Part shown: piece after piece, positions 936-63,167 of the stretch
How the letters are laid out: the number at the start of each line of letters is the position of its first letter
Numbering within the stretch: the stretch's first letter is position 1
Assembly (NCBI GenBank): GCA_038248505.1
Contig: JBBRXJ010000004.1
Span: 1-63,821 of the forward strand
DNA from: Bacteroidales bacterium
GTDB lineage: Bacteria > Bacteroidota > Bacteroidia > Bacteroidales > JBBRXJ01
Direction of reading: 5' to 3'
Length of the DNA: 63,821 nucleotides
The notes under the pieces: model-generated
The model's input: the letters and a program-made list of their open reading frames with translations, nothing else
Databases searched by the model: none
Told to the model about the DNA's origin: nothing
Program-made: the position numbers and the translations under genes

Positions 936-2204
936 CTATTCAGCTCCTTTGTCAAATTCAAATCCGCTGAGTCGGTCTCTGAAATTCTTTATACGAGGGG
1001 TACTCGATTTTATAGTAAGCCATGAATTATACCTAATATAATTGAGTGATTGTTGTAAACAATCTTCAGCGGAGTCACCAAAAGGGCGATAAACATCATC
1101 GTATGCAAATTTTGTAGGTGGTATTCCATTAAAATATCCACCTTCATTATTTGCATTCGTTATTGCAAATGATATAGGTACAAAAGCATAATCACTAAAT
1201 TCAAATACATACATACCTACTGGTTTGCCATGTGTGGTATCTCCAATAATATAAACTGGCATGTATGGTTTCATACTATTTATAATTAACTCACTTGCTG
1301 AAGCGGTGTTACGTGTAGCAATTACAAATAAGCGGGTTATTCCTAAATTATAAGCCGTAGTTGTAAAATTATAGGTGTAATTTTCGTTTGCTAAATTACT
1401 ATTGTGCTTGTAGTTCATGCAAATTTTTCCATTGGTAATTGATGGAGCTAAAGAGTTCAATAAAAATTGCGCTACATCTACACGACCTCCGCCATTGTAT
1501 CTAAAATCGAGTACTAAATCATTAATACCCTGGCTCTGAAAATTGCTGAAAACCTGGTATAACTCATTATAAGTAGGACCTATAAAGCTATGCAGAACAA
1601 GATATCCTACCTTTTTAGAACCTGCTTGAATTACTTCTGAATGGATTACGGTTTTTATAGTCACATTTTCTTTTATCACATTCTTTACCAGAGTATCACC
1701 TAAAACATCAATGTATGTAAATTCTTTAGAGACCCCAAGATTATCGTCGCCAAGCAAGCTCAATTTATCAGCTGTATTGCTGAGAGCTACTCCATCAATT
1801 TTTATTATTTTACAACCTCTATCAATTCCTGCTTTTCTCATGGGTGATCCATCAAAAGAAAACAATATCAATAAATTTCCTGAGGCATCCTCGCTAAACT
1901 GAACCCCAAAACCAACATACATTCCTTCTTCAAAAAAATTATTAAACTCTTCGCGCGATTGTACATAACTCCAACGATCATATTGTTTGTTACGACAGTA
2001 AACCATTAAATCGTCAGGAGAACTAAAGGCAGCAGGATCGATAATGTAGGGTAGTTCTTGATTCCAAAAATAATTTTCTTTCAGAATAAGATATAATTCA
2101 GATTCAGCAATATCGCTAGGTGTACCTGATGGCGTGTATTCAGCCTCTTGCTCAACACAAGATGCAAATACAAGAAGCAAGAAAAGGTAAATACTATTTT
2201 TCAT
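936..2204 (-). CDS. S41-family (tail-specific/C-terminal processing type) peptidase, lipoprotein
   Basis: 422 aa. Lipobox signal LLLVFASC, a PDZ-like segment (GCKIIKIDGV), then an S41 core with FRYNGGGRVDVAQ and NTASASELIINSMK. Confidence 0.75.
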   Translation of the reverse strand: MKNSIYLFLLLVFASCVEQEAEYTPSGTPSDIAESELYLILKENYFWNQELPYIIDPAAFSSPDDLMVYCRNKQYDRWSYVQSREEFNNFFEEGMYVGFGVQFSEDASGNLLILFSFDGSPMRKAGIDRGCKIIKIDGVALSNTADKLSLLGDDNLGVSKEFTYIDVLGDTLVKNVIKENVTIKTVIHSEVIQAGSKKVGYLVLHSFIGPTYNELYQVFSNFQSQGINDLVLDFRYNGGGRVDVAQFLLNSLAPSITNGKICMNYKHNSNLANENYTYNFTTTAYNLGITRLFVIATRNTASASELIINSMKPYMPVYIIGDTTHGKPVGMYVFEFSDYAFVPISFAITNANNEGGYFNGIPPTKFAYDDVYRPFGDSAEDCLQQSLNYIRYNSWLTIKSSTPRIKNFRDRLSGFEFDKGAE

Positions 2205-2308
2205 CTATTCTGAAGTATCATTTGTTAGGATTCAAATACATAAACGATAAAAATATTCAGTAGTATATAATACCCCTCAATTTATATTTACCCTGTATTG
2301 AATTTGAT

Positions 2309-3583
2309 TTAGTCAATCATATCAAAACCAGTATAGCTAACTAAAGCCTTTGGAATAGTAATGCCCTTGGAGCATTGGTTATTTTCAAGTAAAGCAGCTA
2401 GTATACGGGGTAATGCTAAAGCACTTCCATTTAGTGTGTGAGCTAATTTAGGTGTTTTATCTATTTTGTCACGGTATCTTAATTTTAGGCGGTTTGCCTG
2501 AAAATTTTCAAAATTACTAACGGAGCTAACTTCAAGCCACTTTTGTTGTGCTGCGGAATAAACCTCAAGATCATAGGTTAATGCTGAGGTAAAACCCATA
2601 TCGCCTCCACATAATTTTATTACGCGAAAGGGTAATTCAAGTTGATTCAGCAGTTTTACTACATGAGCCACCATGGTTTCAAGCGTATCGTATGATTTAT
2701 CAGGATGTTCAATTTGTACTATCTCCACTTTATCAAACTGATGTAGTCGGTTAAGTCCACGAACATCTTTACCATAGGAGCCCGCCTCACGTCTAAAACA
2801 AGGGGTATATGCAGTCATTTTTATAGGAAGCTCTTCGGCATCAACAATAACATCGCGATAAATATTTGTAACCGGAACCTCAGCAGTAGGAACTAAATAA
2901 TAATTATCGACGGTACAATGGTACATCTGGCCTTCTTTATCGGGTAATTGACCAGTACCAAAACCACTATCTTCATTTACCATGAATGGTGGGAGATATT
3001 CGGTATAGCCTGATTCGCGTGCTTTATCAAGAAAGAAATTAATAAGGGCTCTCTGGTATCTGGCACCTTTACCTTTATATACAGGGAAGCCAGCTCCCGT
3101 TAATTTATTGCCTAGTTCAAAGTCAATAATATCGTATTTTTTGGCAAGATCCCAATGAGGTATTGCTTCACCGTCAAATTTGGGCATTTCACCACCAGTT
3201 AGCACTACAGGGTTATCTTCAGCTCCTTTTCCGTTTGGCACTGTTGCATGCGGTGCATTTGGCAGAGTAATAATGAGTGCCAGTACTTTTTTCTCAGCCT
3301 CTTCATGATCTGTTTCGGCTAATTTTAGCTCATCTTTAAGTAAAATGGTACGTTCTTTTGCTTTATCAGCGTCCTTTTTTTTGCCCTCTTTAAAAAGTTG
3401 GCCAATTTGTTTAGACAAATTATTAAGCTCTGCTTGAACATCATTTACTTTTGATTGTAGAGTACGTCGTTTTTCATCTAAACCAATTATCTCATCAATA
3501 ATTGGTTTAGCATCCATATTGCGGATCTTTAAACGACTAATAATTTCTTCGGGATTTTCGCGAATGAATTTTATAGTTAACAT
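2309..3583 (-). CDS. serS: Serine--tRNA ligase
   Basis: 424 aa. N-terminal coiled-coil arm and class II aaRS motifs (FRREAGSYGKDVRGLNRLHQF, GSALALPRILAALLEN). Confidence 0.97.
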   Translation of the reverse strand: MLTIKFIRENPEEIISRLKIRNMDAKPIIDEIIGLDEKRRTLQSKVNDVQAELNNLSKQIGQLFKEGKKKDADKAKERTILLKDELKLAETDHEEAEKKVLALIITLPNAPHATVPNGKGAEDNPVVLTGGEMPKFDGEAIPHWDLAKKYDIIDFELGNKLTGAGFPVYKGKGARYQRALINFFLDKARESGYTEYLPPFMVNEDSGFGTGQLPDKEGQMYHCTVDNYYLVPTAEVPVTNIYRDVIVDAEELPIKMTAYTPCFRREAGSYGKDVRGLNRLHQFDKVEIVQIEHPDKSYDTLETMVAHVVKLLNQLELPFRVIKLCGGDMGFTSALTYDLEVYSAAQQKWLEVSSVSNFENFQANRLKLRYRDKIDKTPKLAHTLNGSALALPRILAALLENNQCSKGITIPKALVSYTGFDMID

Positions 3584-28370: not shown

Positions 28371-29388
28371 ATGAAAAATTTAATTGAATGTCCGTATTGT
28401 GATGGTAATGCAAAATTACATCGCAAAGACAAGGAGATTAATTATCGTAAAGAAATGTTTTGTGTTGTGGAACATTATTACAAATGTGAAAATTGTAAGG
28501 AAGAATTTACAACCACAAAAACAGACACAGTAACGATGACACAGGTATATAATATGTATCGTAAAAAGTACAATATACCTAGCCTTGAAGAAATCATAGC
28601 CATACGAGAACAATATGATATTTCTGCCACTAAAATGAGCGAAATATTGCAATAGGAATTAATGGATATAACAATTATGAGAAAGGAGAAATACCAAGTA
28701 CAGCTATAGCAAACCTAATTACAATGGCAGCAAAACATGCAATATTTATAAATATGGTAGACAAAGTAAAGGATAGTTTAACTGCTAACCTTTATGATAA
28801 AATATTAAGTAAAACAAAAACACTAATAGAAGTTTAAGAGAAAGAAAAAAGACAGCTTGCAAAATAAATATTTACCAAGATGCCAATGAATACACAGGAC
28901 TTAAATACCCAAGCAAAGATAAAATTGCCAATATATTTTTAATGTATATTAAAAACTGTATAAATGATTTTAATGATAGGCTAAAGTTAAACAAGCTACT
29001 TTTTTATACTGACTTCTATTGTTACAATTTAACAGGAAATTCCATAACAGGAATATCTTATAGGGCAATACAATATGGACCTGCACCTGCTAATTATGAT
29101 AATATATACGATATAATAGAAGAAGAAGGGTACATAACACAGAAATGGGTTAAGGTTGAAAAAGGTAGTGGAAGAGAAATATTTGAAAGTAAACGTAGTT
29201 TAGACAAAAATGTTTTCACAGAAGATGAAATAAATGTTATAAACCTAATAATTGATAATTTCAAAGATATACCAACTTGGGATTTAGTTGATTTAAGTCA
29301 TAAAGAAGCAGGATGGAAAGAGAATGAAAAAAGTAGAAATATAATTATCTATCAGAAATATGCCTTTAAACTTAAAGCATTGGCATAA
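28371..29388 (+). pseudogene. Frameshifted MqsA-type Zn-ribbon + XRE HTH + Panacea (DUF4065, SocA/PanA-like) antitoxin gene
   Basis: There are three consecutive reading frames. Frame A covers 28371-28655 (CPYCDG...CENCKEEF Zn ribbon, then ...ISATKMSEILQ*). Frame B is open over 28634-28837 (AIGINGYNNYEKGEIPSTAIANLI...). Frame C is open from 28813 (...EYTGLKYPSKDKIANIFLMYIKNC...LKLNKLLFYTDFY...YRAIQYGPAPANYD, which is Panacea-like). Each junction is a -1 shift. Confidence 0.7.
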
Positions 29389-29733
29389 TAATTGATAATT
29401 ACAAAACCGAAGCTTTGGAATAGTGTTTCGGTCTATTAAACTAAAAATGTTTGACGACGATTATTATTTTGATAGAAAAAGCAGCAAAATTCTTTGTACT
29501 ACCAATTATTCCATGGGTAGAATGCACTAACGCAATAGTATCAAATTATTGGTGTAAAAAATTGTGCTTTTTTTAACGCTCAATAGTCGAGGTTAAGCTT
29601 ATCACAAAGACATTTCGGTTTATTAGATACGTTCAGTTCAAAGGGTCTAGGATTTTGACTATATAATACCGAATGGTCGGGATTAAAGTCTCACTAATTA
29701 AAAAATCAAACATCACATCTAGAGTCTCAGCAT

Positions 29734-38174: not shown

Positions 38175-39437
38175 ATGAATAATAAAATTGAAATAATGGC
38201 TCCTGTAGGTTCCTTCGAATCTCTTACAGCTGCAATACAAGCAGGAGCAAATGCTATTTATTTTGGTGTAGGTGATATGAATATGCGATCGCATTCCGCT
38301 TCGGTAAATTTTACAATAGAAGATATTGAGGCCATATTAATTCGATGTAGAGAAAAGCAGCTAAAAAGTTATCTTACTATTAATACGGTGATATATGATA
38401 GTGAGATGGATGATATGCAATGCTTAGTAAATGCAGCTAAAAACCTAAATGTTACTGCAATTATTGCATCAGATCAATCAGTAATGCATTATGCCCGATC
38501 AGTTGGAATGGAGATCCATCTCTCAACACAAGTGAATATAAGCAATCTGGAAGCTGTTAAATTTTATTCGACTTTTGCTGATGTGATGGTTCTTGCGCGT
38601 GAGTTAAATATTGATCAGGTTAAGTTTATAAGTGAAGGAATAAAAAGAGAAAATATTTTGGGTCCCTCGGGTGAATTAGTTCGCCTTGAAATGTTTGTTC
38701 ATGGAGCATTGTGTATGTCTATTTCAGGTAAATGTTATTTGAGTTTACATGAATTTAATAAATCAGCAAATCGCGGAAAGTGTTTTCAAACATGTCGTAG
38801 AGGCTATACCGTTAGTGATCGTGAGACGGGTGAAGAACTGGCTATTGAGAATCAATATATCATGTCGCCAAAAGATCTTTGTACAATTCATTTTCTTGAT
38901 CGTATTATAGATGCAGGCGTTACTATACTTAAAATTGAAGGGAGAGCACGATCAGCTGATTATGTAAAAACGGTGACGACTTGTTATAGAGAGGCTGTTG
39001 AATCAATTGCAACGGGATCTTTTTCACATCAAAAAGCAGAGCAATGGAAGATGAAGCTAGCTACTGTTTTTAATCGTGGTTTTTGGGATGGCTATTATTT
39101 AGGACAAAAATTAGGTGAATGGAATGATTCTTATGGATCTAAAGCAACAGAGCGAAAAGTATATATTGGAAAGGTGAGTAATTATTTTTCCAAGATTGGA
39201 GTTGCAGAACTGAAGTTAGAAGCCAATTCACTCGACAAAGGGGATAGTATATTAATAATGGGTGATACAACAGGAGTTTACGAAGGAATAGCAGAAGAAA
39301 TTCGTGTTAATTTAAAAGTTGTTGATGTGGCTGGTAAAGGAGTATGCTGCTCTATTTCAGTAACAGAACCCGTCCGTCGTTCAGATAAGGTGTATAAACT
39401 AAAACAGAGCGAAAGTGTTGTTGACACTCAAAATTAG
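38175..39437 (+). CDS. Peptidase U32 family protein
   Basis: 420 aa with the N-terminus IEIMAPVGSFESLTAAIQAGANAIYFG and the U32 signature EMFVHGALCMSISGKCYLS. Confidence 0.9.
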   Translation: MNNKIEIMAPVGSFESLTAAIQAGANAIYFGVGDMNMRSHSASVNFTIEDIEAILIRCREKQLKSYLTINTVIYDSEMDDMQCLVNAAKNLNVTAIIASDQSVMHYARSVGMEIHLSTQVNISNLEAVKFYSTFADVMVLARELNIDQVKFISEGIKRENILGPSGELVRLEMFVHGALCMSISGKCYLSLHEFNKSANRGKCFQTCRRGYTVSDRETGEELAIENQYIMSPKDLCTIHFLDRIIDAGVTILKIEGRARSADYVKTVTTCYREAVESIATGSFSHQKAEQWKMKLATVFNRGFWDGYYLGQKLGEWNDSYGSKATERKVYIGKVSNYFSKIGVAELKLEANSLDKGDSILIMGDTTGVYEGIAEEIRVNLKVVDVAGKGVCCSISVTEPVRRSDKVYKLKQSESVVDTQN

Positions 39438-39508
39438 CCCTTACATGAAATTTATGTTTTTTGAGATTAAAAAATCCGCTCAAATTTTATATATATTTGT
39501 ATTCTCAT

Positions 39509-39582
39509 TGCCCATTGGTGTAATTGGCTAACACGTCTGACTCTGAATCAGAAGAGTCCAGGTTCGAGTCCTGGTTGGGCAA
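39509..39582 (+). tRNA. tRNA-Gln (anticodon CTG)
   Basis: Hand-folded cloverleaf. Acceptor TGCCCAT/TTGGGCA (with one T-T mismatch at 7:66). D arm GTGT-AATTGGCTA-ACAC. Anticodon arm TCTGA-CTCTGAA-TCAGA. T arm CCAGG-TTCGAGT-CCTGG. Discriminator A, and no encoded CCA. Confidence 0.85.
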
Positions 39583-39609
39583 CAAAATTGAAAGCTAAAA
39601 ATGGAAAAA

Positions 39610-39647
39610 CCCGCTCGGAACATTGTTCTGAGCGGGTTTTTGTTTTT
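39610..39647 (+). terminator. Rho-independent terminator after tRNA-Gln
   Basis: CCCGCTCGGAAC-ATT-GTTCTGAGCGGG (12 bp with one G-U pair), followed by TTTTTGTTTTTT. Confidence 0.85.
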
Positions 39648-39759
39648 TAGACCTAGTGTAGAAAGATTCCTTTTAATCCTATAGTGAGGATACCCCCATC
39701 AGGGGTGTCCTTTTAGATAATTTTTATTCAATAAACTTTGATTTTTCTTTAATTGTTGG

Positions 39760-40239
39760 TTATACCCCCATAACCATATATAACTGCAATATGTCATAGT
39801 CAATAAAATTCACATTGTTATTAGAGAGAAATTCTTTGGTTTCTTTCAGATTGAAAGGCAATATTCTTATTTTCTGTATTATTCTATTGTGAAGCCCCCC
39901 TTTATTCATTATAATTTTCTTCACCATATAGGCAGCAGCAGAAACTCATATAACAATTACAATATCATTTTTTCGTGAAGCATATTCATTCCAGAAACGT
40001 TTAAATGCCATTAAAAAGTTTGATTTTGGTGAATCTAACCAAGCGAATTCATTAATAAATACAGCTTTCTTACCTTTAATTGAAGACGAATTTAAATACT
40101 CTTTAAGAGCATTAAACCCATCAACCCAATTTGCTAATTGATGTTGTTTATGAGTAAGCTTGTTTAGGAATTTCTCTTCAAAATAATGAAGCATCATCAA
40201 AATCTCAACAATAAATAAGAACAAAATTATTGATTGCAT
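39760..40239 (-). pseudogene. Decayed AAA+ ATPase gene (archaeal-ATPase-like family common in Bacteroidota), truncated at both ends
   Basis: The track ORF 39946..40239 carries the Walker B region AVFINEFAWLDSPKSNFLMAFKRFWNEYASRKNDIVIVI. An in-frame TGA at 39948-39946 sits where these proteins have Cys. The same frame then continues as VSAAAYMVKKIIMNKGGLHNRIIQKIRILPFNLKETKEFL...LQLYMVMG up to a TAA at 39762-39760. The Walker A part is missing. Confidence 0.6.
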
Positions 40240-40248
40240 AGAAAGTTT

Positions 40249-40650
40249 TCAGGGTTCTGAATTATACAACTTTTCAATGATCCCAGCCATAATATCTTCA
40301 AAGTTAAATCCCTCCAAATAGCTATCAATATTGCTATCGAACTCGTTTTCGTAAATATTTGTCTTAAGCTTTATTCGTTTACTTGTCGCTACATGTATGG
40401 CAAATATTTCTATTTTCTTCTCTAAATCATAGAGAATATGTATTTCATATTTGAAACGATTTGATATGGTATTCCTCTTGTTAACCTTAATGATTATGGG
40501 GTCTTCATCATATTGCTGACGGTAAAGTAAAAACTCGTATTTCTTATTAATATCGTTATCGAGTTCCTCTTTGGCTGAGTTTCGAAAATAGAGTTTTATA
40601 TTTTCGAAAAGTTTCTCAAAGTTGGTAGCGTTTTCTTTTTTTCGTCCCAT
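40249..40650 (-). CDS. Hypothetical protein
   Basis: 133-aa charged, soluble-looking ORF with no motif I recognise. Confidence 0.45.
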   Translation of the reverse strand: MGRKKENATNFEKLFENIKLYFRNSAKEELDNDINKKYEFLLYRQQYDEDPIIIKVNKRNTISNRFKYEIHILYDLEKKIEIFAIHVATSKRIKLKTNIYENEFDSNIDSYLEGFNFEDIMAGIIEKLYNSEP

Positions 40651-41023
40651 ACACGTATTTTAATAATTGCAATATACTAATATTATGATATTTAATCATT
40701 TAATTATTGCTTTTTTATGAATTCATCAATAATTTTATAGAGCTACTATAAAAGATGTTTAAATTCTATTTGAATTAATAGGCATCAAAATAAGAGAAGT
40801 TTCACCTTTAAACGAGAAATTCAAACCATGTTTTACGAGTTTTTCAAGCAATACAAAAGCATAGACTTTTTTTTTCAAATAATACAAGATTTACATGCCT
40901 TTTTATGTTTTTATGCATAGAAACAGACCTACATTTTTTGATAATTCTGAATGTATTGATATAAAATGTATATAGGAAATATTCCAGTGTTACTGCAGCT
41001 TCTCAATGTAACATACAATTTAA

Positions 41024-41059
41024 AAAACTCAAAATAGGTATTGCAGTATTTTGAGTTTT
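41024..41059 (-). terminator. 13-bp perfect AT-rich hairpin, terminator-like on the minus strand
   Basis: AAAACTCAAAATA-10 nt-TATTTTGAGTTTT. On the minus strand it is followed by TTTTTT (A6 at 41022-41027 on the + strand). No annotated minus-strand gene feeds into it. Confidence 0.4.
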
Positions 41060-41083
41060 ATTTTGTATTAAAAATAGAGTACG

Positions 41084-41164
41084 CCTTAACGTATTACAAA
41101 AAGATAAATGTTGTTAGGAGGTGCCTCCATCTACATCGATTACGATGTAGAAAAGATGCACAAC
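41084..41164 (+). repeat. Copy A of a conserved ~80-nt element (mini-ORF start plus palindromic hairpin)
   Basis: CCTTAACGTATTACAA...ATG(41108) TTG TTA GGA GGT GCC TCC ATC TAC ATC GAT TAC GAT GTA GAA AAG ATG CAC. It aligns with copy B at 43296. It contains the hairpins GGAG-GTGC-CTCC and CTACATCG-ATTA-CGATGTAG. Confidence 0.6.
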
Positions 41165-41581
41165 TTAATGACACTGGTTTTTCTTTGTACTTTTTTGAAC
41201 CACGATTACTCTAAAGTGTATTATAAACAATGTTCTAAAATCTTATTTATTGCAATTAAATTTTTTGCTTTTTTTTGTCTAATAATAATGCATGCATCTG
41301 CTTTTTTTCAATTCACACCATTTTTAATCATTACACCTCTAAAGTGTTATATGTGTGAACGTTCAACAGAAAAACGCTGAGAGAATTCTAATGTATTCAT
41401 ATCTTTTCTTTATCGCAAAACTATCTGATTGATAAATTAAAAACTTATTGTTGGTGTATGTTAAAGTAAAATCAGATTTTCTTTTTCCGAAAAATTATTA
41501 TGGCTGGATGTGATTGTTATTAGCAAATAATATGGTATCTTTTCAAAAAGTTTAATCATTCATTTAATAAACATAATAAGT

Positions 41582-43162
41582 ATGAAAAAGCACTACTACA
41601 TGTTATTTTTTGCTGTTCTGATGGTAATGAACTGTTATAGCCAGAATGTTGTTGTAAAGAAAGGAATTAATCCTAATAATGTTCGTGATGCCCTTATGGA
41701 CTCACAGGGTAATACCTACCTTTTATTAAAAAGAGGTGACAAAGCTGAAACTGTTGTGAAAATTGACTCTTATGGGGTTAAGACAACAGTTTTTGATACA
41801 AATAATATTACAAATTATTCGTCTATTACATCTTCGGGTTTTTTTAGCATGACCTACAATGAAGATTCTTTAACGTTTTATTTTAGTTATTTCCGAAATT
41901 CAGAAGATGTTGGTTGCCTGGGAAGCTATAAAATAGGAACTGCCTTTACAAAAGAATTATATGCAGCAGCCGGGACTAGCGGAAGCTATCCATGGAGCTT
42001 GACCTACAGTAAGTTAACAGGCAAGATATGGGCGACAGAACTTAATTCAAATGGCCGAAAAGCAGCTATTGCCTGTTTTAACCCTGTAACAGGTGCAAGA
42101 ACACGTATAGCAGGAGGAGGTAAAGAATTTGGAGATACAATTGGGATTGGTACACAAGCTGCGTTTAATTTTTCTAACGAATGGTATTCAGGTAGTGCTC
42201 GGCAGGGTAAAGGAATTGTTTTTAACAAAACATACGATACCTTAATTGTTGTAGATTGTCGTAACCATAAAATTAAAAAAGTAGCCATTATGACTGAGGC
42301 TGCTAATAGTGGTGTTGTTGTTAAATTTGCGGGTAAAGGAAATTTAGGGTTTAGAAATTCAGACAATCCTGATTCGGCTGTTTTCTGTATTATTACCGAT
42401 ATACTTAGGGATGATCTTGGTTATTTGTATGTTTCAGAGGCTGGAAATAATGATACTATCGGCAACCGGGTGAGAAAAATTTCACCTTCAGGTAAAGTGT
42501 ATACTCTTTTTGGAAGTAATGGTGGAGCCAGCTTTACTGCGGGTATCGGCAAAAATGCAGTTGTTAAACATACGGATAATATATTTTTCAATGCTGCAAA
42601 GGATACCATCTATGGATATTGTGAGACCGCTAATTTTAAGGCGTACAAAGCAACGCATATCATAACTGTTTCAATACCGGATAAAGTTATTTCATCACCA
42701 AAATTTAAAATTCCATATACCATTAGTACAGGTGCACCTGTTATTTTTTCAGTTATTTCAGGACCTGCTTCAATTGTTGGGACTGATTCCATTGTGCTAA
42801 GCGGAACTGTAGGGCAGGTGATTGTAAAAGCCGCCGCCGCAGCTAATAACGACGCTTATAATTATGGTGAAAAACTGGATACATTCAATGTTATTGATCC
42901 TGTTGGGATAACAAAATTTAATGCCGAGTCTTTGATTGTTTCTCCTATTCCATCAAAAGGACATTTGGAAGTATCATTCTCAGCTCAAAATTATAAGGGA
43001 GCCACAATCAGGATATATAATATGTTAGGACTGCAAGTTAATTTACAGGAAAACATTTCAGGCTTAACTGGTATTGATATTACAGATCAGCCCTCTGGAG
43101 TATATATACTTGTTCTGTCAGTGGATGGCCAAAAAGTAGTAAAACGGATTATAAAACAATAA
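41582..43162 (+). CDS. Secreted NHL/beta-propeller repeat protein with T9SS C-terminal sorting domain
   Basis: 526 aa with a signal peptide and NHL-like repeats (VVDCRNHKIKKV; LYVSEAGNNDTIGNRVRKISPSGKV). The CTD reads PIPSKGHLEVSF...IRIYNMLGLQV...GVYILVLSVDGQKVVKRIIKQ. Confidence 0.75.
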   Translation: MKKHYYMLFFAVLMVMNCYSQNVVVKKGINPNNVRDALMDSQGNTYLLLKRGDKAETVVKIDSYGVKTTVFDTNNITNYSSITSSGFFSMTYNEDSLTFYFSYFRNSEDVGCLGSYKIGTAFTKELYAAAGTSGSYPWSLTYSKLTGKIWATELNSNGRKAAIACFNPVTGARTRIAGGGKEFGDTIGIGTQAAFNFSNEWYSGSARQGKGIVFNKTYDTLIVVDCRNHKIKKVAIMTEAANSGVVVKFAGKGNLGFRNSDNPDSAVFCIITDILRDDLGYLYVSEAGNNDTIGNRVRKISPSGKVYTLFGSNGGASFTAGIGKNAVVKHTDNIFFNAAKDTIYGYCETANFKAYKATHIITVSIPDKVISSPKFKIPYTISTGAPVIFSVISGPASIVGTDSIVLSGTVGQVIVKAAAAANNDAYNYGEKLDTFNVIDPVGITKFNAESLIVSPIPSKGHLEVSFSAQNYKGATIRIYNMLGLQVNLQENISGLTGIDITDQPSGVYILVLSVDGQKVVKRIIKQ

Positions 43163-43216
43163 TTACAATCAATATTTTGCAGCACGAAATGTAGTTTTTG
43201 TAATATCATTTTAAAC

Positions 43217-43260
43217 CGGATTAAGCATTAGAATCAAATTCACTAATGCTTAATCCGTTT
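43217..43260 (+). terminator. Rho-independent terminator after the NHL cargo gene
   Basis: CGGATTAAGCATTAG-11 nt-CTAATGCTTAATCCG (15 bp, perfect), followed by TTT. Confidence 0.75.
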
Positions 43261-43295
43261 AAATTTGGGTTAGCTCCAGATTAATCCCAAGTTCA

Positions 43296-43398
43296 CCTTA
43301 ACGTATCACAATATAAAATGCCGTTCGGCGGTGGCTCCGCATCCATCGACTACGATGATGCAATGAAGCACAAGTCTATCAATGCCTACCAGCCGTAA
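43296..43398 (+). repeat. Copy B of the conserved element, containing a closed 26-codon mini-ORF (43318..43398)
   Basis: CCTTAACGTATCACAA...ATG CCG TTC GGC GGT GGC TCC GCA TCC ATC GAC TAC GAT GAT GCA ATG AAG CAC..., which translates to MPFGGGSASIDYDDAMKHKSINAYQP*. It is visibly GC-richer than its flanks. The hairpin is CATC(C)ATCG-ACTA-CGATGATG. Confidence 0.6.
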
Positions 43399-43680
43399 AC
43401 CCAAATCAATATTTTATTTATTTTATACCGTTTGTAAATATGTAATAGAGCAAATTTCGCTACTCTCATTTGCACTAAACATATTTAACAAGGGCATTTG
43501 CCAATCTAAATATATAATTAGTCTATGGGCTAAATTTTAAGTAAGATTGCTATTTGATATAATGGAGTTTATATTTTAAAATAAACCCCAATATAAAACT
43601 GTACGCATTGTTTTTAATTAAATCTTTTTTAGAGAATGCTTTTCCTATTTACTTTTTAATTAACTTGCTATAATCTATCG

Positions 43681-43848
43681 ATTCTGCACAATCGTACACC
43701 AATTAGATATTTACTAATTTTTAATGAAAGCAAATCTCTTATATATTGATGAAAGTAAAACGCTGAGGCATTCGCCTCGGCGAATAAGCGCATGGAAATA
43801 AAGGCGTTACAAAACCGGGGCTCTTCGCCGGGGCGAATGCCTCAGCCA
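43681..43848 (+). repeat. Intergenic repeat copy 1 with embedded 23-bp GC-rich inverted repeat
   Basis: The AT-rich arm ATTCTGCACAATCGTACACCAATTAGATATTTACTAATTTTTAATGAAAGCAAATCTCTTATAT aligns with 63035-63100. The inverted repeat pairs GCTGAGGCATTCGCCTCGGCGAA (43762-43784) with TTCGCCGGGGCGAATGCCTCAGC (43824-43846). That is 23 pairs with one T-G, around a 39-nt loop. Confidence 0.65.
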
Positions 43849-43917
43849 TTTGCTTTGGTATTTTAGTATGAAATTTGTCTTTGGTGTATCATTCTGCAGA
43901 ATCTATTTAATAAAAGT

Positions 43918-46146
43918 ATGAGAATCATTCTAATCGGTTTTTTTTTATTACTACAATTTATTATAACAGAGAGTTCTAGCGCTCAAAGTGTAGTAAATAT
44001 AGTAGTTTCAGGCAAGCCTTTAAGTGTTAATGGGCAAACTAAGGTTCCTGAAAGTCTTTTTGGAGTACATCTAGGGAATTTTATTGGTTACAATAGTGAT
44101 ACCGTATTTAAATGGGGCATTGTATCTGCTCGTTCCATTGAAACGATACCAGCGGGCGCTGCATGGATGCCAAGTAATGGGTTAAAAACCCTTGTACAAT
44201 GCTGGTATGATCGTTTTGTTCCGGCAACCATTCTTACAAATAGTAATTGGAAATCCATTTTACAGAACCTCGGAAATACGTATGGTAAAACAGCCAACCC
44301 CAGTAACTCCCCGTTAATGTTGGAATTTTGGAATGAACCTTATTTGAATTGGGCTTATAAGCCAGGCGTAAATACCGATATTCAATTTTATAATCAAAGT
44401 GGAATATCTGAAAATGCTCCAGTATTTCGCAATGGCAGTATTGTTGCAGAACCTTATCTTATTTGGAGAACCGATATGTGGTATGATAGTCCTAAGTGGG
44501 CATCAAATCGACAAGGTGTTTATAATGCAATTTCAACGGAATGGAATAAGGTTATTTCTGCTGGATGTTTCTATCCATGCCAGAATGCGCTTGTCATTGA
44601 TTCAACCTATAGAAAGACTACGAGTAGCGAGTTTACTCCTCGTGTTCGACTAAGACCAGTGGATACTACGCAGAAATCGTATTATTCATCAAAACAAATG
44701 GAGCATTATTATAATCAGATGTACCAAATTGTTGCCGATACCATAAAGAAGCTAAACCCTGCAGTGCAGATGATTGCTGGCTGGGGAATGGAATCGCATA
44801 AAGATAATTGGTTGCCATGGCACACATTAATTAAACCAACATTTGATAAAAACATTCATCTTATTGATGGCTATCATGAACATCATTATGGCACTGATAC
44901 TCGAATAATAGCAGCCGATTACGAAACTATAACCGCATATACAGATAAGAAATATTTAAAACGTTTAAAGTTTTACAATACTGAAACGGGAGGATTTTTA
45001 GATCCGCAAAGACCGGATGGAGTATCAAGCAGCCCGGGAACGGTTACTGCAGCGCAAAAAGCATTGAACGCTTTCAGCTACAATATTCGCGATATTGTTT
45101 ATATGATTGATAAATGTCCCGACAAAGCTGCCACCCGTGCCGTACATGAACCACAGAATACCAATGGGGGTGTTGAAAAGGCCTTTAAGTTATCAAAAAC
45201 CTTTCGCGGAAACATGATTTATGATGAGTCATCTGATGAAGAGGTTTATACTATTACATCACTTAATGATAGTTTGATGACAACCATTTGTTTTAATGGA
45301 AACATGAGTTCACGAATTTTAAATTTTGAAATTAAGGCAACTCAAGGAATGATTTTTAATGGGGGATACGTATTATCTGTAGATACTTTACCTGGGATGA
45401 TCATACTACAATGGAAGAACCTAACTGCTGTTGGTGCCCGCTTTAATTTTATTGACACCATTGATCCATATACCGCAAAATCCTATGTATTAAGGCTTAC
45501 AGGTGTTCTCTCGGCAATAGATACTATTTACGTTAAACAATTTTATGCCGATACTATTTTGGTTGAAATACCCGCAGCAAGTTCGAGCGATTTTAAAATT
45601 AGCATACCACAACAAGCATTAGATAATGCACAAGCAGCGCGTATTAAATATGTGCTTATGAATTATAAATCGGGTGGGTCGTTTAGTTTAAATGGCAAGA
45701 ACTATTCAATAGTGAATTATAGTGGCGGCAATCCTGAAAAAAGCTTAGGAGGTATTAGTTATCAAACAATTGATCTGGCAAATCTTACAACAAATAACAC
45801 GTTAGCGGTTTATTCTGGTGATACTGCGATAAAAGTTTGGATGGCGAGTATTGAATTAACGAATTCAAAATTATATGATTCGTTAACCGATAATCAGAAA
45901 ATAAAAAAGCCTGATATTGGTTTTACGATGCAACCCAATCCCGCTACAAAAAATTTACATATTAAAACAGTATTAAATGATAAAGCAAGTATTTCTATTA
46001 TTGCATTAGATGGCAAAAGTGTTTTGGAGCAAAGCATACACGGGAATAGTGATCTTAATATTTCTGGCATTGGTAATGGATTATATATTGTAGTTTGCAA
46101 ACAGGGAACAGAGCTTTACAGAGAAAAATTAATAATAAAAAATTAA
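43918..46146 (+). CDS. Secreted putative clan GH-A (TIM-barrel) glycoside hydrolase with T9SS C-terminal sorting domain
   Basis: 742 aa with a signal peptide. It has the acid/base-type motif LMLEFWNEPYLNW and a later FYNTETGG (nucleophile-like TE). The CTD reads QPNPATKNLHIK...SIIALDGKSV...GLYIVVCKQG..YREKLIIKN. Confidence 0.6.
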   Translation: MRIILIGFFLLLQFIITESSSAQSVVNIVVSGKPLSVNGQTKVPESLFGVHLGNFIGYNSDTVFKWGIVSARSIETIPAGAAWMPSNGLKTLVQCWYDRFVPATILTNSNWKSILQNLGNTYGKTANPSNSPLMLEFWNEPYLNWAYKPGVNTDIQFYNQSGISENAPVFRNGSIVAEPYLIWRTDMWYDSPKWASNRQGVYNAISTEWNKVISAGCFYPCQNALVIDSTYRKTTSSEFTPRVRLRPVDTTQKSYYSSKQMEHYYNQMYQIVADTIKKLNPAVQMIAGWGMESHKDNWLPWHTLIKPTFDKNIHLIDGYHEHHYGTDTRIIAADYETITAYTDKKYLKRLKFYNTETGGFLDPQRPDGVSSSPGTVTAAQKALNAFSYNIRDIVYMIDKCPDKAATRAVHEPQNTNGGVEKAFKLSKTFRGNMIYDESSDEEVYTITSLNDSLMTTICFNGNMSSRILNFEIKATQGMIFNGGYVLSVDTLPGMIILQWKNLTAVGARFNFIDTIDPYTAKSYVLRLTGVLSAIDTIYVKQFYADTILVEIPAASSSDFKISIPQQALDNAQAARIKYVLMNYKSGGSFSLNGKNYSIVNYSGGNPEKSLGGISYQTIDLANLTTNNTLAVYSGDTAIKVWMASIELTNSKLYDSLTDNQKIKKPDIGFTMQPNPATKNLHIKTVLNDKASISIIALDGKSVLEQSIHGNSDLNISGIGNGLYIVVCKQGTELYREKLIIKN

Positions 46147-46246
46147 CCAATAAGAATTCGATATAATTATAATCAGTATTTAACAATTAAATTAGTCCTT
46201 GGTCTATTTTATGCATATTCAAAATAGTAATTAACACATATACATT

Positions 46247-48280
46247 ATGAAACATATCTTTACAAATCTCGTCTGTTTTTTGATTCTTATTTTTGGTCTC
46301 GGAGCGCAGCAGTTAATTATTAATGAAGATTTTACCGATAGCTTGTTCGATGGTACAGGAGCCGGTATTGATGCTGTAAATTGGAAACACAATCCATTTT
46401 CAAATGGAGTTGGCATGCATAAACCAAATAATAGAACTTTCCCGTATGGTTTGTCAAAAATATTAAGTCAATGTTCGAGTAATCCATGGGCTGGTGCTAT
46501 TCGTTGGGGAGCTTTTGTTAATCCCGATTCAGGATGGACTAGTCGAAATTTACAAACGTATTATGTCGATAAATTTAACGATGTAGTAGTAATAAAATAT
46601 AAATCCTTTTCAGATGTTGCTCGTAAACCGGAAGTTTACCATGCTCAGATTACTTTGATGAATTATAATGAAAAGTTTTTACCCGCACCACATTTTGATC
46701 ATGATATATCTATAGAGACAGATAATTTTTATCATGTTGACAATACGAGTACCCCACGTCAGTTGAATGGTAATGTAAATACCATTCGTAATTGGGCACC
46801 ATTAGGTATTGCCTATGCACATTTTTCGGCTAATGGAGGTCAGCCTACAAATACCGAATTGTCGAAAGAGTGGAATAATTTGGTGATATTTAGACCCAAA
46901 CCCAATATGTACTCAACCAATATTGAACAATGGGGTGAGCGTATGAGTGATGATTATGATGTGGCTATTGGAATGGAAAATCGCCTATTTTCACAGCCTC
47001 CCCGCGATGTTTTACTTGATACAATTTCAGAGTATACAAAATTTAATTATGTTCAATTCACCTTTTTTAGTTATTTACAAACCTCATTACCCTTTTTATG
47101 CCGAACAGGAGTTGCAACAACGGATGCACAAATAGGGTTTTGTAATGCACAAGTGGGTATTACAAAGAAATCAGATTTTAATATAGATTATGTAATTGAC
47201 CAAAAAGATGCGGATACCCTAGTTAAATATTGGGGCTATACAGGAACAATGAAAATCCGTACAGGTGATGCTACTAATGATAAAGCAAGCGATTTAGCTG
47301 ACGCTAATCCATTAATTGCATTTTGGTCTGCCGCACTTGATTCAGGTAAAGCATCCGTAACTTATAATTCAAGTACGGGTGAGATTCGTATTACAGCACA
47401 AAATATTAGTTACTTTAAAATTGAAAGTGCTTCATCTTCATTGAATGCTACCGCAGCTAATTTTGCTGCGCTAAGTCCTGCTGGAATAGTTAATACTACA
47501 ACATATAAAGGATGTTTTTCAAAAATAGCAAATACTTTAACAGATTATAGTTTGGGAACTATTGCAGCAACCGGATTAAATCCGTCTGATTTGGTTGTTA
47601 CAATTAATTACTTTGGAAGCAAAGTGGCTAATGGCTTTAAGGTACCTGTAAATATGGGATATAACAATACTAAACCCGCAACTATTCAGTTTGAAATTAG
47701 TAATGTAAATCTTACCGAGGGAGTTGACACATCGTATGATTTTAACGTTCAATTAGTAAATCCAGACAAAGTATCTACCTATGTTGTGCGTATAGCAACC
47801 ATGGCCGGTGACTCATTGCGAACCACTTTGTTTGGTTCCAAAACACTCACATTTACACCTGGAGGTGCAACATCTAAAATAGTTCATTTTAGTGTTATTG
47901 ACGATAATAAAACAACCGCAATTGATAATGTGCGATTTGGTATTCAGATTGTGAGTGGCGGAAACATAAGCAAAGGCAATCAGAATCAACTTGATTTGTA
48001 TATATATGATAAAACTTTATCTGGCAAAGCCAATGTGCTGCAAACCACATTGAGGTCGAGTGAGGTAACGATAGCGCCAAATCCGACCGACGGGCTCGTA
48101 AGTATTACCAGTGGTGACCCCATAGAGTGTGTTTCAATTGTAAATATGCTGGGAACTGAAATCGAAATACAATCAAAAAATAAAAAAAATATTGATATTT
48201 CAAATTATCCTAAGGGGGTGTATATACTTGTTATTCGCACAAAAATGGGTGAGGTTAAGCAAAAGATTATAAAGAAATAA
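46247..48280 (+). CDS. Secreted protein with dockerin/EF-hand-like segment, Calx-beta-like domain and T9SS C-terminal sorting domain
   Basis: 677 aa with a signal peptide. A segment DFNIDYVIDQKDADTLVKYW...GDATNDKASDLADANPLIAFW is dockerin-like. A Calx-beta-like stretch reads IQFEISNVNLTEG...TLTFTPGGATSKIVHFSVIDDN. The CTD reads IAPNPTDGLVSI...IVNMLGTEI...GVYILVIRTKMGEVKQKIIKK. Confidence 0.6.
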   Translation: MKHIFTNLVCFLILIFGLGAQQLIINEDFTDSLFDGTGAGIDAVNWKHNPFSNGVGMHKPNNRTFPYGLSKILSQCSSNPWAGAIRWGAFVNPDSGWTSRNLQTYYVDKFNDVVVIKYKSFSDVARKPEVYHAQITLMNYNEKFLPAPHFDHDISIETDNFYHVDNTSTPRQLNGNVNTIRNWAPLGIAYAHFSANGGQPTNTELSKEWNNLVIFRPKPNMYSTNIEQWGERMSDDYDVAIGMENRLFSQPPRDVLLDTISEYTKFNYVQFTFFSYLQTSLPFLCRTGVATTDAQIGFCNAQVGITKKSDFNIDYVIDQKDADTLVKYWGYTGTMKIRTGDATNDKASDLADANPLIAFWSAALDSGKASVTYNSSTGEIRITAQNISYFKIESASSSLNATAANFAALSPAGIVNTTTYKGCFSKIANTLTDYSLGTIAATGLNPSDLVVTINYFGSKVANGFKVPVNMGYNNTKPATIQFEISNVNLTEGVDTSYDFNVQLVNPDKVSTYVVRIATMAGDSLRTTLFGSKTLTFTPGGATSKIVHFSVIDDNKTTAIDNVRFGIQIVSGGNISKGNQNQLDLYIYDKTLSGKANVLQTTLRSSEVTIAPNPTDGLVSITSGDPIECVSIVNMLGTEIEIQSKNKKNIDISNYPKGVYILVIRTKMGEVKQKIIKK

Positions 48281-56147: not shown

Positions 56148-56423
56148 TTATTCAGCACGGTCATCACCGCCTGCAGGAGCGGTACGTGGATTAGCTTCCT
56201 GCACAATGATTGCGCGCTCTTCGAGTTCGTAGCCATTCATAGCTAAAATAGCTTTTTGACCTTCAATCTCGTTTGGCATTTCAACGAAGCCATAACCTTT
56301 TGATCTTCTGGTTTTGCGGTCGAGTATAATTCTTGCGGATGATACTTCACCATACTGTTCAAAAACTTCTTGGAGCTTACTGCTTCTGACCTTGAAGTTC
56401 AGATTTGCAACGAAAATGTTCAT
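56148..56423 (-). CDS. RRM-type RNA-binding protein
   Basis: 91 aa with RNP2 (IFVANL) and RNP1 (KGYGFVEM). Confidence 0.9.
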   Translation of the reverse strand: MNIFVANLNFKVRSSKLQEVFEQYGEVSSARIILDRKTRRSKGYGFVEMPNEIEGQKAILAMNGYELEERAIIVQEANPRTAPAGGDDRAE

Positions 56424-63034: not shown

Positions 63035-63167
63035 ATTCTGCATAATTATACCCAACATTGATATTAATTGTTTTTTTAATGAAATCAAATCTCTTTATAT
63101 CAATTAAAGGCTATACAAACCGGGGCTTCTTCGCCGCGGCGAAAAACTCAATGTACCACCTCAGCCA
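63035..63167 (+). repeat. Intergenic repeat copy 2 (lacks the left hairpin arm)
   Basis: ATTCTGCATAATTATACCCAACATTGATATTAATTGTTTTTTTAATGAAATCAAATCTCTTTATAT...AAAGGCTATACAAACCGGGGCTTCTTCGCCGCGGCGAA...CCTCAGCCA aligns with 43681-43848. It contains a 14-nt perfect palindrome TTCGCCGCGGCGAA at 63130-63143. Confidence 0.6.

What the first reader, a model, noticed from the sequence alone, without database searches (positions are those of the whole stretch)
41024..43398. Duplicated ~80-nt element (mini-ORF M-x-x-G-G-x-S-x-x-I-D-Y-D plus covarying palindromic hairpin) about 0.5 kb upstream of two consecutive T9SS cargo genes
Copy A (41084-41164) and copy B (43296-43374) align while their flanks do not. 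Both start with CCTTAACGTAT(T/C)ACAA and reach an ATG after 8-10 more nt. The peptides are A = MLLGGASIYIDYDVEKMH... and B = MPFGGGSASIDYDDAMKHKSINAYQP*. By my hand count, 41 of the first 57 coding nt are identical. Some differences are synonymous third-position changes (GGA/GGC, GAT/GAC), which favours a peptide.

The same stretch also folds. A forms CTACATCG-ATTA-CGATGTAG and B forms CATC(C)ATCG-ACTA-CGATGATG. The two outer pairs swap T-A/A-T to A-T/T-A, which is compensatory. That favours an RNA hairpin or a palindromic operator. A second short GC hairpin sits just upstream in both copies.

Context points:
- Copy B is closed after 26 codons and is GC-richer than its surroundings.
- Copy A runs open for 90 codons into AT-rich sequence.
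- Each copy lies 25-36 nt after a strong hairpin (41024-41059 and 43217-43260).
- The copy-A hairpin carries a T6 tail only on the minus strand, so a minus-strand small RNA is also possible.
- The two copies bracket the NHL cargo gene like cassette boundaries.

I do not recognise this element.
Basis: seen in the sequence. Interest (0 to 1): 0.7.

Follow-up and report, generated by a model that had tools for sequence, protein, structure and literature searches.

The report
Small non-coding stem-loop repeat family
The two look-alike 85-base stretches are real and have a third, more diverged relative 11 kb away; what they share is a stem-loop with fixed flanking motifs, not a peptide and not a link to secreted-protein genes, so this is a small, orphan family of structured intergenic elements of modest interest.

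Summary
Copy A (41080-41168) and copy B (43292-43378) are homologous: 73% identity over 86 nt, blastn E 4e-10, with unalignable flanks.

Most of the interpretation does not hold.
- A covariance model built from A and B alone found a third, diverged copy C on the minus strand (29641-29557).
- C keeps AACGTAT, AAATG, GTG and GCACAA in the same order. It has a 10-bp hairpin whose arms are unrelated in sequence to those of A and B but fully paired.
- In C the ATG opens only Met-Ser-Leu-stop.
- C lies between two convergent genes, not upstream of a T9SS cargo gene.
- Substitutions between A and B show no coding signature (2 synonymous against 11 non-synonymous codons), and codon usage is atypical.

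The element is therefore a non-coding module made of a conserved 5' box and a covarying stem-loop.

It is single-copy at 80% identity or more in the source metagenome, so it is not an active MITE or IS end. It has no Rfam match. I found no relative in genome, metagenome, viral, plasmid or phage collections. The host is an uncultured Bacteroidales with no close relatives.

My best reading is a lineage-specific structured RNA element, sRNA-like or UTR-embedded. A REP-like repeat is the main rival.

In passing I found a high-copy 226-nt MITE at 43678-43903.

The parts
41080..41168 (+). Copy A of the element. 5' box CCTTAACGTATTACAA 41084-41099; AAATG 41106-41110; GTG 41121-41123; 9-bp hairpin 41130-41138 / 41143-41151 with loop ATTA; GCACAA 41158-41163.
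   Evidence: Alignments. Fold: the 41-nt core gives -17.1 kcal/mol, z = -6.45. CM scores 113.5 bits (R1) and 88.9 bits (R2).
43292..43378 (+). Copy B. 5' box 43296-43311; AAATG 43316-43320; GTG 43331-43333; hairpin 43339-43348 (C43344 bulged) / 43353-43361 with loop ACTA; GCACAA 43368-43373.
   Evidence: core -12.8 kcal/mol, z = -2.37. GC 47.6%. CM scores 101.6 bits (R1) and 74.4 bits (R2).
29557..29641 (-). Copy C, newly found and diverged. AACGTAT 29633-29627; AAATG 29615-29611; GTG 29605-29603; 10-bp hairpin 29596-29587 / 29583-29573 (C29578 bulged, one G-U pair) with loop CTA; GCACAA 29567-29562; then T6 at 29561-29556. The ATG opens only ATG TCT TTG TGA.
   Evidence: Found by model R1, which was built from A and B only: 18.6 bits, E about 0.06. 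The best chance score is 13.9 bits in the window and 10.4 bits in 85 kb of other Bacteroidales DNA. The composite motif occurs 3 times in the window and 0 times in 300 shuffles. Core fold z = -2.86. It is intergenic, and 84% of the window is coding.
41108..41380 (+). 90-codon ORF opening in copy A. Judged incidental, not a gene.
   Evidence: Codon-usage log-odds is -0.02 per codon, against 0.30 +/- 0.08 for real genes. It contains a DNA-level direct repeat (41193-41224 / 41321-41352) that falls in two different reading frames. Its length is at the 99th percentile of shuffles, which remains a minor loose end.
43318..43398 (+). 26-codon ORF opening in copy B. Judged incidental.
41024..41059 (.). 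Terminator-like hairpin 24 nt before copy A, with T-rich runs on both strands.
43211..43263 (+). 21-bp-arm hairpin 49 nt after the stop of the 526-aa gene and 32 nt before copy B. It is overlapped and followed by the only TAnnTTTG box of that intergenic region (43260-43267).

Best explanation
A, B and C belong to a small, lineage-specific family of non-coding intergenic elements about 85 nt long. Each has two modules:
- a 5' module of fixed sequence: CT(T/G)AACGTAT, an A-rich spacer of 9-11 nt, then AAATG;
- a 3' module in which GTG and GCACAA clamp a 9-10-bp stem-loop whose arms vary in sequence while staying complementary.

Selection acts on the stem-loop and on the unpaired flanking motifs, not on a peptide.

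Most likely the element works as RNA, read on the strand as drawn. It could be a short sRNA of its own, or a module carried in neighbouring transcripts (the leader of the two cargo genes for A and B, the 3' UTR of the 369-aa gene for C). In that reading the conserved single-stranded boxes are a binding site for a partner RNA or an RNA-binding protein. The stem-loop would protect or terminate the transcript.

Shown: the homology, the three-copy family, the conserved paired stem with changed sequence, and the absence of a conserved ORF. Inferred: that it is transcribed, on which strand, and what it binds.
For: - **Homology of A and B:** (E 4e-10).
- **Third copy C:** found by a model that had not seen it, well above the empirical chance scores. 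It has all four fixed motifs in order.
- **Stem-loop:** in the hand-registered three-way alignment all 37 cells are paired, and 8 of 10 hairpin pairs change on both sides. 1 of 500 shuffles does as well, and slid controls give 18-46% paired. RNAalifold recovers the same structure.
- **Identity pattern:** stem arms of C match A/B at 4 of 18 positions, which is random level. Non-stem positions are about 60% identical. This fits a paired region under structural constraint only.
- **Each copy folds:** core z-scores are -6.45, -2.37 and -2.86.
- **Intact stems despite divergence:** overall divergence is 27-50%, which argues for ongoing selection in each copy rather than decay of dead repeats.
- **Strand:** one G-U pair in C is tolerated only on the drawn strand. 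C is followed directly by T6 on that strand. B is preceded by the only TAnnTTTG promoter box of its intergenic region.
- **Against coding:**, and the 3-codon ORF in C.
- **Against an active mobile element:** each copy has the single-copy depth of its contig, with no other copy at 80% identity or more among 10.9 million contigs of the source metagenome.
Against: - There is no expression data. The only run holding this DNA is a DNA metagenome.
- No promoter sits at a fixed distance in the three copies. Only B has a canonical Bacteroidota -7 box.
- Only C has a U-run right after the stem-loop.
- The contexts differ: A lies in a divergent region, B between two co-directional genes, C between convergent genes. 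No single cis role fits all three.
- Membership of C rests on E about 0.06 plus features partly chosen after seeing it.
- The three-way alignment was fitted by hand to the structure, with N padding, which inflates the covariation counts.
- With A and B alone the structural evidence is marginal.
- The hairpin is a Watson-Crick palindrome apart from one pair, so a DNA-level or opposite-strand role is not excluded.
- No homologue was found outside this contig, so conservation across species is untested.
Confidence: 0.45

Rival explanations
1. REP-like or old MITE-like dispersed repeat. In this reading the element is a short selfish or domesticated intergenic palindrome family, whose hairpin is recognised as single-stranded DNA by an HUH-type transposase (RAYT or IS200/IS605-like) encoded elsewhere in the genome. 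The conserved flanking motifs would be the cleavage or guide sequences.
For: - Three copies in 64 kb, all intergenic.
- A hairpin with free stem sequence and fixed flanking motifs is the REP pattern (REP/REPIN biology: PMC3116915, PMC3337134).
- The same genome carries another repeat in more than 100 copies, so small mobile DNA thrives here.
- Two of the three copies lie just downstream of a gene end, next to terminator-like hairpins.
Against: - No copy at 80% identity or more to A, B or C anywhere in the source metagenome. There is therefore no sign of recent copying, unlike the MITE next door.
- The copies are not arranged as inverted doublets (REPINs).
- No GTAG/CTAC motif is shared by the three copies.
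- At 85 nt the element is longer than a REP, and its conserved 5' box lies 35-40 nt from the hairpin.
- No transposase lies in the window.
- Stems are intact despite 27-50% divergence, which is unexpected for dead copies.
Confidence: 0.22
2. Small protein or leader-peptide gene, with the hairpin secondary.
For: - The frame is open in both A and B.
- The ATG sits in the A-rich context that Bacteroidota use for initiation (own knowledge of Bacteroidota translation initiation).
- 9 of 20 residues are identical and there are two synonymous differences.
- The 90-codon ORF in A is longer than 99% of shuffles.
Against: - Codon position 2 changes most often (2/9/7), with 2 synonymous against 11 non-synonymous codons.
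- Codon usage is far from that of real genes.
- The ORF lengths are 90, 26 and 3 codons.
- A 5-nt deletion in C removes the GG motif and shifts the frame, yet the nucleotide motifs and the hairpin persist.
- No family hit in Pfam or NCBIfam.
- The motif is absent from the JGI metagenome scan.
- phmmer hits are repeat proteins with an unrelated IDYDDG motif.
- The conserved 5' box is in different frames in A and B because of a 2-nt indel.
Confidence: 0.05
3. DNA-level site. In this reading the imperfect palindrome is an operator for a dimeric regulator, or a recombination site. In the recombination version the direct repeats A and B mark a cassette carrying the 526-aa gene.
For: - The core is a near-perfect DNA palindrome, which cannot be told apart from an RNA hairpin by sequence.
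- A and B are direct repeats that bracket one gene, in a region that breaks synteny with the nearest relatives and follows a tRNA gene.
Against: - The arms differ almost completely between copies (4 of 18 identical). A sequence-specific DNA-binding protein or recombinase would not tolerate that.
- No joint contig lacks the 41.1-43.3 kb segment.
- No integrase or recombinase lies in the window.
- Copy C stands alone, without a partner.
- The attC R''/R' complementarity is absent.
Confidence: 0.08
4. Opposite-strand small RNA. In this reading the element is transcribed antisense to the drawing. The RNA would start beyond GCACAA, carry the stem-loop, then a single-stranded CAUUU...AUACGUUAAGG stretch that could pair with A-rich start-codon regions, and end at the hairpin that precedes copy A.
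For: - The hairpin 41024-41059 has a clean T6 on the minus strand.
- A TAnnTTTG box on the minus strand lies at 41423-41416.
- The reverse complement of AAATG is an anti-start-codon motif. FopS sRNAs of Bacteroides thetaiotaomicron act at start-codon regions of target mRNAs (PMC11697453).
Against: - No minus-strand promoter box exists anywhere in the intergenic region of B.
- No terminator follows C on its antisense strand.
- The G-U pair in C would become a C-A mismatch.
- The T6 of C is on the drawn strand.
Confidence: 0.1
5. Neutral relic. In this reading A and B are what remains of an old short duplication, C is a chance match, and nothing is under selection.
For: - The mismatches between A and B are spread about as a uniform 27% divergence would give. 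The longest identical run is 11 nt against about 10 expected.
- A is shifted towards A+T relative to B (11 sites against 3), as in decay.
- No homologue exists in any collection searched.
Against: - The boundaries of similarity are sharp.
- B holds 47.6% GC in a 33% GC intergenic region.
- The supposedly decayed copy A has the best hairpin (z = -6.45).
- C scores well above every chance match in 148 kb and has a stable hairpin exactly between GTG and GCACAA.
Confidence: 0.1

Closest known systems
FopS/GibS-type paralogous sRNA families of Bacteroides (PMC11697453)
   Same: - A multi-copy family within one Bacteroidota genome.
- Members lie in intergenic or 3'-UTR positions.
- A conserved, probably single-stranded 5' stretch is followed by a hairpin.
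- Copies are only partly similar in sequence.
- The window also encodes an RRM-type RNA-binding protein (56148-56423), the protein class that binds FopS.
   Different: - No Rfam match, although the paper says the FopS consensus structure was deposited in Rfam.
- No canonical promoter at a fixed distance.
- A U-run follows the hairpin only in copy C.
- No expression evidence.
- No sequence similarity.
REP / REPIN elements mobilised by RAYT transposases (PMC3116915, PMC3337134)
   Same: - Short intergenic palindromes whose stems covary.
- Fixed flanking bases.
- Often found next to gene ends.
   Different: - Only three diverged copies were seen, and none at 80% identity or more in the metagenome.
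- No inverted doublets.
- No shared GTAG motif.
- Longer than a REP, with a distant conserved 5' box.
- Presence of a RAYT gene is unknown.
MITEs, such as the 226-nt element at 43678-43903 in the same window
   Same: Small, non-coding, intergenic and hairpin-forming.
   Different: The neighbouring MITE has terminal inverted repeats, more than 100 copies at 85-99% identity, and a depth of 2000-3500 against 15. The element studied here has none of these.
Integron attC sites
   Same: - Imperfect palindromes with a bulged base, lying between co-directional genes.
- The 5' box resembles the RYYYAAC motif.
   Different: - No complementary GTTRRRY box at the 3' side.
- 420-540 nt separate the element from the next gene.
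- No integrase.
- Copy C is isolated.

Membership tests
Any described RNA family (Rfam 15) | Score at or above the family's gathering threshold | tested here: not met
   The whole window at gathering thresholds gives only a tRNA. Permissive scans over A/B and over C give only noise from eukaryotic families.
IS end / MITE | Several near-identical copies in the genome | tested here: not met
   Each of A, B and C is matched by one contig only, at single-copy depth, at 80% identity or more among 10.9 million contigs of the source metagenome. The same method recovers about 170 contigs for the neighbouring MITE.
IS end / MITE | Terminal inverted repeats, target-site duplication, or a transposase nearby | tested here: not met
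   The repeat search found no inverted-repeat pair at the ends of the element, and none is visible in the sequence. No transposase or integrase domain is present in the window's proteins. No match in plasmid or phage records.
REP/REPIN-RAYT | Palindrome with covarying stem and conserved flanking bases | tested here: met
REP/REPIN-RAYT | Tens to hundreds of copies, commonly as inverted doublets | tested here: inconclusive
   Three single copies in 64 kb and no doublets. The rest of the genome is not available. Copies below 80% identity cannot be seen with read laying.
REP/REPIN-RAYT | A RAYT (Y1 HUH transposase) gene in the genome | not testable with these tools
   Only this 63.8-kb contig of the MAG is at hand, and none is encoded on it.
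Small protein / leader peptide gene | ORF kept in all copies, with excess of synonymous change and host-like codon usage | tested here: not met
   ORFs are 90, 26 and 3 codons. There are 2 synonymous against 11 non-synonymous codon differences, and position 2 is the most variable. Codon score is -0.02 and 0.01, against 0.30 +/- 0.08 for real genes.
Trans-acting sRNA gene (FopS-like) | Own promoter (-33 TTTG / -7 TAnnTTTG) and Rho-independent terminator | tested here: inconclusive
   A TAnnTTTG box precedes only B, at 43260. A T6 follows the stem-loop only in C.
Trans-acting sRNA gene (FopS-like) | Detected transcript | not testable with these tools
   No RNA run holds this sequence.
Integron attC | R'' RYYYAAC paired with R' GTTRRRY, cassette array, intI | tested here: not met
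   The sequence shows CCTTAAC but no GTTAAGG-like partner downstream. No integrase was found.
Cis-regulatory leader specific to T9SS cargo genes | Found upstream of cargo genes, and conserved with them | tested here: not met
   Copy C is not next to a cargo gene. The third cargo gene has no copy. Orthologous cargo pairs in L034-L036 lack the element.

The most novel reading that the evidence does not exclude
A previously undescribed family of structured regulatory RNAs in an uncultured Bacteroidales lineage. It would have a conserved single-stranded box (CUUAACGUAU...AAAUG) acting as a binding site for mRNAs or an RRM-type chaperone, followed by a covarying stem-loop clamped by GUG/CAC. Copies would be placed beside genes for surface or secreted proteins.
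Probability: 0.3. Interest if true: 0.45.

Novelty: new member of a known kind. Interest (0 to 1): 0.3.

Why it matters
If the element is transcribed, it adds a new paralogous structured-RNA family to a phylum whose RNA biology lacks Hfq and ProQ and is still poorly charted. It would give three natural variants of one stem-loop to test.

In practice the value is limited. The family is seen only on one contig of one uncultured organism. It has no homologues elsewhere and no expression data, and it cannot be manipulated genetically.

The more immediately useful results are negative. There is no hidden micro-protein here and no T9SS-specific control element. The gap in front of the 742-aa cargo gene is long partly because a high-copy MITE has landed 15 nt before its start codon.

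Tried and rejected
**Searches for further copies outside the window**
- Genome-contig scan with CTTAACGTAT N30-50 ATHGAYTAYGAY gave 8 hits. All were chance, none with the rest of the element.
- Metagenome-contig scan with the peptide-type pattern gave 2 chance hits, an endolysin-like ORF and the C-terminus of another ORF.
- Three viral-contig scans gave chance hits only. The best later CM hit, L015, lies inside a 645-aa phage ORF.
- blastn against plasmids and phages found nothing.

**Searches in related genomes**
- The region downstream of the U32 peptidase gene in the nearest relatives (66% protein identity) is not syntenic and has no copy.
- The 526-aa cargo protein is an orphan.
- Orthologues of the 742-aa cargo gene have short upstream regions without the element.

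**Attempts to get more of this genome**
- I tried to extend the genome beyond the window through Logan contigs. Both contigs end inside the window.

**Peptide searches**
- Pfam and NCBIfam gave no hit.
- phmmer against 1.84 billion representatives gave 4 hits. All are internally repetitive proteins with a DIDYDDGEKE-like or GSASIDYLDVMG motif, scored up by summing repeats. I do not regard them as homologous.

**Ideas considered and dropped**
- Tandem gene duplication: the downstream genes are unrelated apart from the T9SS domain.
- DGR template/variable repeat: differences are not adenine-specific and there is no reverse transcriptase.
- Group II intron end, CRISPR repeat and attC: the architecture does not fit.
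- ECF or sigma-54 promoter: no spacing match.

**Check on the model**
- A model of all three copies (R2) finds no fourth copy in the window.
Full report
**1. The observation**

The stretch was read directly.
- Copy A and copy B align over about 87 positions, with 63 identical bases and one 2-nt indel. The sequence on either side does not align.
- blastn of the 931-nt intergenic region around A against the whole window returns B at E 4.4e-10 (73% over 86 nt). Everything else is at E 1e-3 or worse and is AT-rich noise.
- The 16-mer CCTTAACGTAT(T/C)ACAA occurs only at 41084 and 43296.
- The ORFs are 41108-41380 (90 codons) and 43318-43398 (26 codons).
- The hairpins fold as described.
- Small corrections are listed under the observation check.

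**2. Context**

The window comes from a sediment metagenome. One DNA run holds it and no RNA run does.

The host is an uncultured Bacteroidales. The best homologue of its U32 peptidase among 5.8 billion proteins is only 66% identical. Close comparative genomics is therefore impossible.

In those relatives the genes upstream of U32 are syntenic, but the region downstream is not. In the window, U32 is followed by:
- a tRNA gene;
- two small unknown ORFs on the minus strand;
- copy A;
- a 526-aa T9SS protein;
- copy B;
- a 742-aa and a 677-aa T9SS protein;
- a Cache/PAS/CBS/DUF294 sensor protein.

The three T9SS proteins are unrelated to each other apart from the C-terminal sorting domain. A and B are therefore not leftovers of a tandem gene duplication.

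The 526-aa protein has no real homologue anywhere.

The 742/677 pair is a conserved two-gene unit in other Bacteroidota at 42-48% identity. There its upstream region is only 27-240 nt long and has no copy of the element.

**3. Is it a repeat of a mobile kind?**

I laid the contigs of the source run on A, B and later C at 80% likeness. Each time I got one contig at the single-copy depth of 14-16.

The same method shows that a different stretch, 43678-43903, is present in about 170 contigs at 85-99% identity. Its summed depth is 2000-3500.

The method therefore does detect repeats, and the element under study is not one at that level of similarity.

No transposase, integrase or recombinase domain is present in the window. 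No contig joins A to B with the 526-aa gene missing.

**4. Peptide or not?**

In the shared frame, A and B differ at 2, 9 and 7 sites in codon positions 1, 2 and 3. Two codon differences are synonymous and 11 are not. A gene under purifying selection shows the opposite pattern.

I scored codon usage against 25 long genes of the window. A gives -0.02 and B gives 0.01 per codon. Real 270-nt gene windows give 0.30 +/- 0.08, and none falls below 0.16 at the 5th percentile.

The conserved 5' box is in different frames in A and B. A DNA repeat inside the A ORF also falls in two frames.

Further searches:
- Pfam and NCBIfam know no such peptide.
- A back-translated pattern for M-x-x-G-G-x-S-x-x-I-D-Y-D found two unrelated ORFs in the JGI metagenomes.
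- An exhaustive phmmer search returned four repeat proteins whose scores come from summing a short IDYDD-type motif.

One point favours coding: the 90-codon ORF in A is at the 99th percentile of shuffles. I regard that as a post-hoc oddity of a T-rich strand.

**5. A third copy**

I built a covariance model (R1) from A and B alone, using the hairpin and its GTG/CAC clamp as structure. I ran it over the window without filters.

Its best hit after A, B and the antisense of A is 29641-29557 on the minus strand, at 18.6 bits and E about 0.06.
- The next chance hit in the window scores 13.9 bits.
- In 85 kb of other Bacteroidales DNA the best score is 10.4 bits.
- nhmmer had flagged the same place weakly.

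Copy C reads TTGAACTGAACGTATCTAATAAACCGAAATGTCTTTGTGATAAGCTTAACCTCGACTATTGAGCGTTAAAAAAAGCACAATTTTTT. It has AACGTAT, AAATG, GTG and GCACAA in the same order and nearly the same spacing as A and B.

The composite pattern occurs three times in the window and never in 300 dinucleotide shuffles. Its blocks were chosen after seeing C, so this test is not independent.

Between GTG and GCACAA, C forms a 10-bp hairpin with one bulge (z = -2.86; 1 of 200 shuffles folds as well).

C lies in the 16% of the window that is non-coding. I put the chance that C is a true member at about 80%.

**6. What the three copies share**

I aligned the three by hand so that the stems are in register. Deletions and bulges were padded with N, which is declared here as a manipulation.
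- All 13 pairs are standard in all copies.
- 8 of the 10 hairpin pairs change on both sides.
- 1 of 500 shuffles does as well.
- Sliding the 3' partners drops pairing to 18-46%.
- RNAalifold finds the same structure by itself.
- The stem arms of C are identical to those of A and B at 4 of 18 positions, which is what unrelated sequence gives. The unpaired parts are about 60% identical.

With A and B alone the case was weak. There was no compensatory pair in column register, and about 4-5% of random substitution sets kept the hairpin. The third copy carries the argument, and the alignment was fitted to the structure, so the counts are generous.

Even so, three perfect stems at 27-50% overall divergence are hard to explain without selection for pairing.

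**7. What C rules out**

- Its ATG is followed by TCT TTG TGA.
- A 5-nt deletion removes the Gly-Gly codons.
- It lies 93 nt after the stop of a 369-aa gene of unknown function, and faces the end of a SocA/Panacea-type gene.

The peptide and the link to T9SS cargo genes are therefore not properties of the family.

**8. How it may work**

Conserved unpaired motifs around a stem of free sequence are typical of a functional RNA. They are also typical of a hairpin recognised as single-stranded DNA.

Evidence for the drawn strand:
- the one G-U pair in C;
- the T6 that follows GCACAA in C;
- the only TAnnTTTG promoter box of the B intergenic region, which sits 28 nt before B.

Evidence for the opposite strand:
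- the clean T6 after the hairpin that precedes A;
- a minus-strand TAnnTTTG box 250 nt away.

No feature is shared by all three copies, so strand and transcript boundaries remain inferred.

The nearest functional analogy is the FopS family of Bacteroides thetaiotaomicron. It has 14 paralogous sRNAs with a conserved single-stranded 5' seed and a terminal hairpin. They are bound by the RRM protein RbpB and act on start-codon regions of outer-membrane transporter mRNAs (PMC11697453). This is an analogy only. Rfam gives no match, although the paper says the FopS consensus structure was deposited in Rfam, and the promoter and terminator features are not consistently present.

The main rival is a REP-like repeat (PMC3116915, PMC3337134). 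I cannot exclude it because the rest of the genome is out of reach.

**9. Verdict**

The finding is real, and it is a little larger than reported: three copies, not two. The attractive parts of the interpretation fall away (micro-protein, T9SS control element, cassette boundary).

What remains is a small orphan family of structured non-coding elements in one uncultured bacterium.
- Confidence that it is non-coding and hairpin-centred: about 0.85.
- Confidence that it acts as RNA on the drawn strand: about 0.45.
- Interest: 0.3.

Noticed in passing
window 43678-43903 (second, partial copy at 63035-63143): A high-copy MITE-like element of about 226 nt lies 15 nt before the ATG of the 742-aa T9SS gene. 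It has 26-nt terminal inverted repeats (GATTCTGCA...TGCAGAATC) and a GC-rich internal 23-bp stem. In the source metagenome its ends reach a summed depth of 2000-3500 against 15 for the flanks. About 170 contigs match at 85-99% identity on both strands, many at the depth of this genome. The central part is replaced or deleted in other copies. There is no Rfam match. It explains why the Logan contig breaks at 43705.
   Followed up: partly
window 43762-43846: Inside that MITE, the 23-bp stem GCTGAGGCATTCGCCTCGGCGAA / TTCGCCGGGGCGAATGCCTCAGC has a single mismatch, which is a G-U pair only on the plus strand. A terminator-like site (43827-43859 followed by ATTTTAGTAT) lies within it. The insertion may therefore affect expression of the cargo gene behind it.
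   Followed up: no
window 39437-48280, compared with L030-L033: Synteny with the nearest relatives (DUF748/AsmA-like gene, histidine kinase, U32 peptidase) ends right after the U32 gene. Here a tRNA gene (39509-39582) with a strong terminator follows, then lineage-specific genes. This looks like a variable region next to a tRNA gene, but no integrase or direct repeat of the tRNA end was found.
   Followed up: partly
window 43918-48280; L034, L035, L036: The 742-aa and 677-aa T9SS proteins form a two-gene unit that recurs in other Bacteroidota: a 745-750-aa homologue followed by a second Por_Secre_tail protein. Neither has any other Pfam domain. It is a conserved secreted pair of unknown function.
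   Followed up: no
window 41193-41224 and 41321-41352: A direct repeat lies within the AT-rich region after copy A (core CTCTAAAGTGT, 128 nt apart). It occurs nowhere else in the window. It is unexplained.
   Followed up: partly
It is essentially an orphan: its only database relative covers 25% of it at 31% identity.
   Followed up: yes
window 28371-29388: A Lar-like restriction-alleviation ORF and a SocA/Panacea antitoxin-domain ORF lie next to copy C. This may be a small defence or toxin-antitoxin islet.
   Followed up: no
window 56148-56423 (minus strand): A 91-aa RRM_1-domain protein is encoded here. This is the class of global RNA-binding protein (RbpB-like) that binds paralogous sRNAs in Bacteroides.
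   Followed up: no
L035 255-277: Just upstream of an orthologue of the 742-aa gene lies CCTCTAACGTTACAAAATACATG, which loosely resembles the 5' box plus ATG of the element. There is no hairpin after it and it falls below every score threshold, so it is probably chance.
   Followed up: partly
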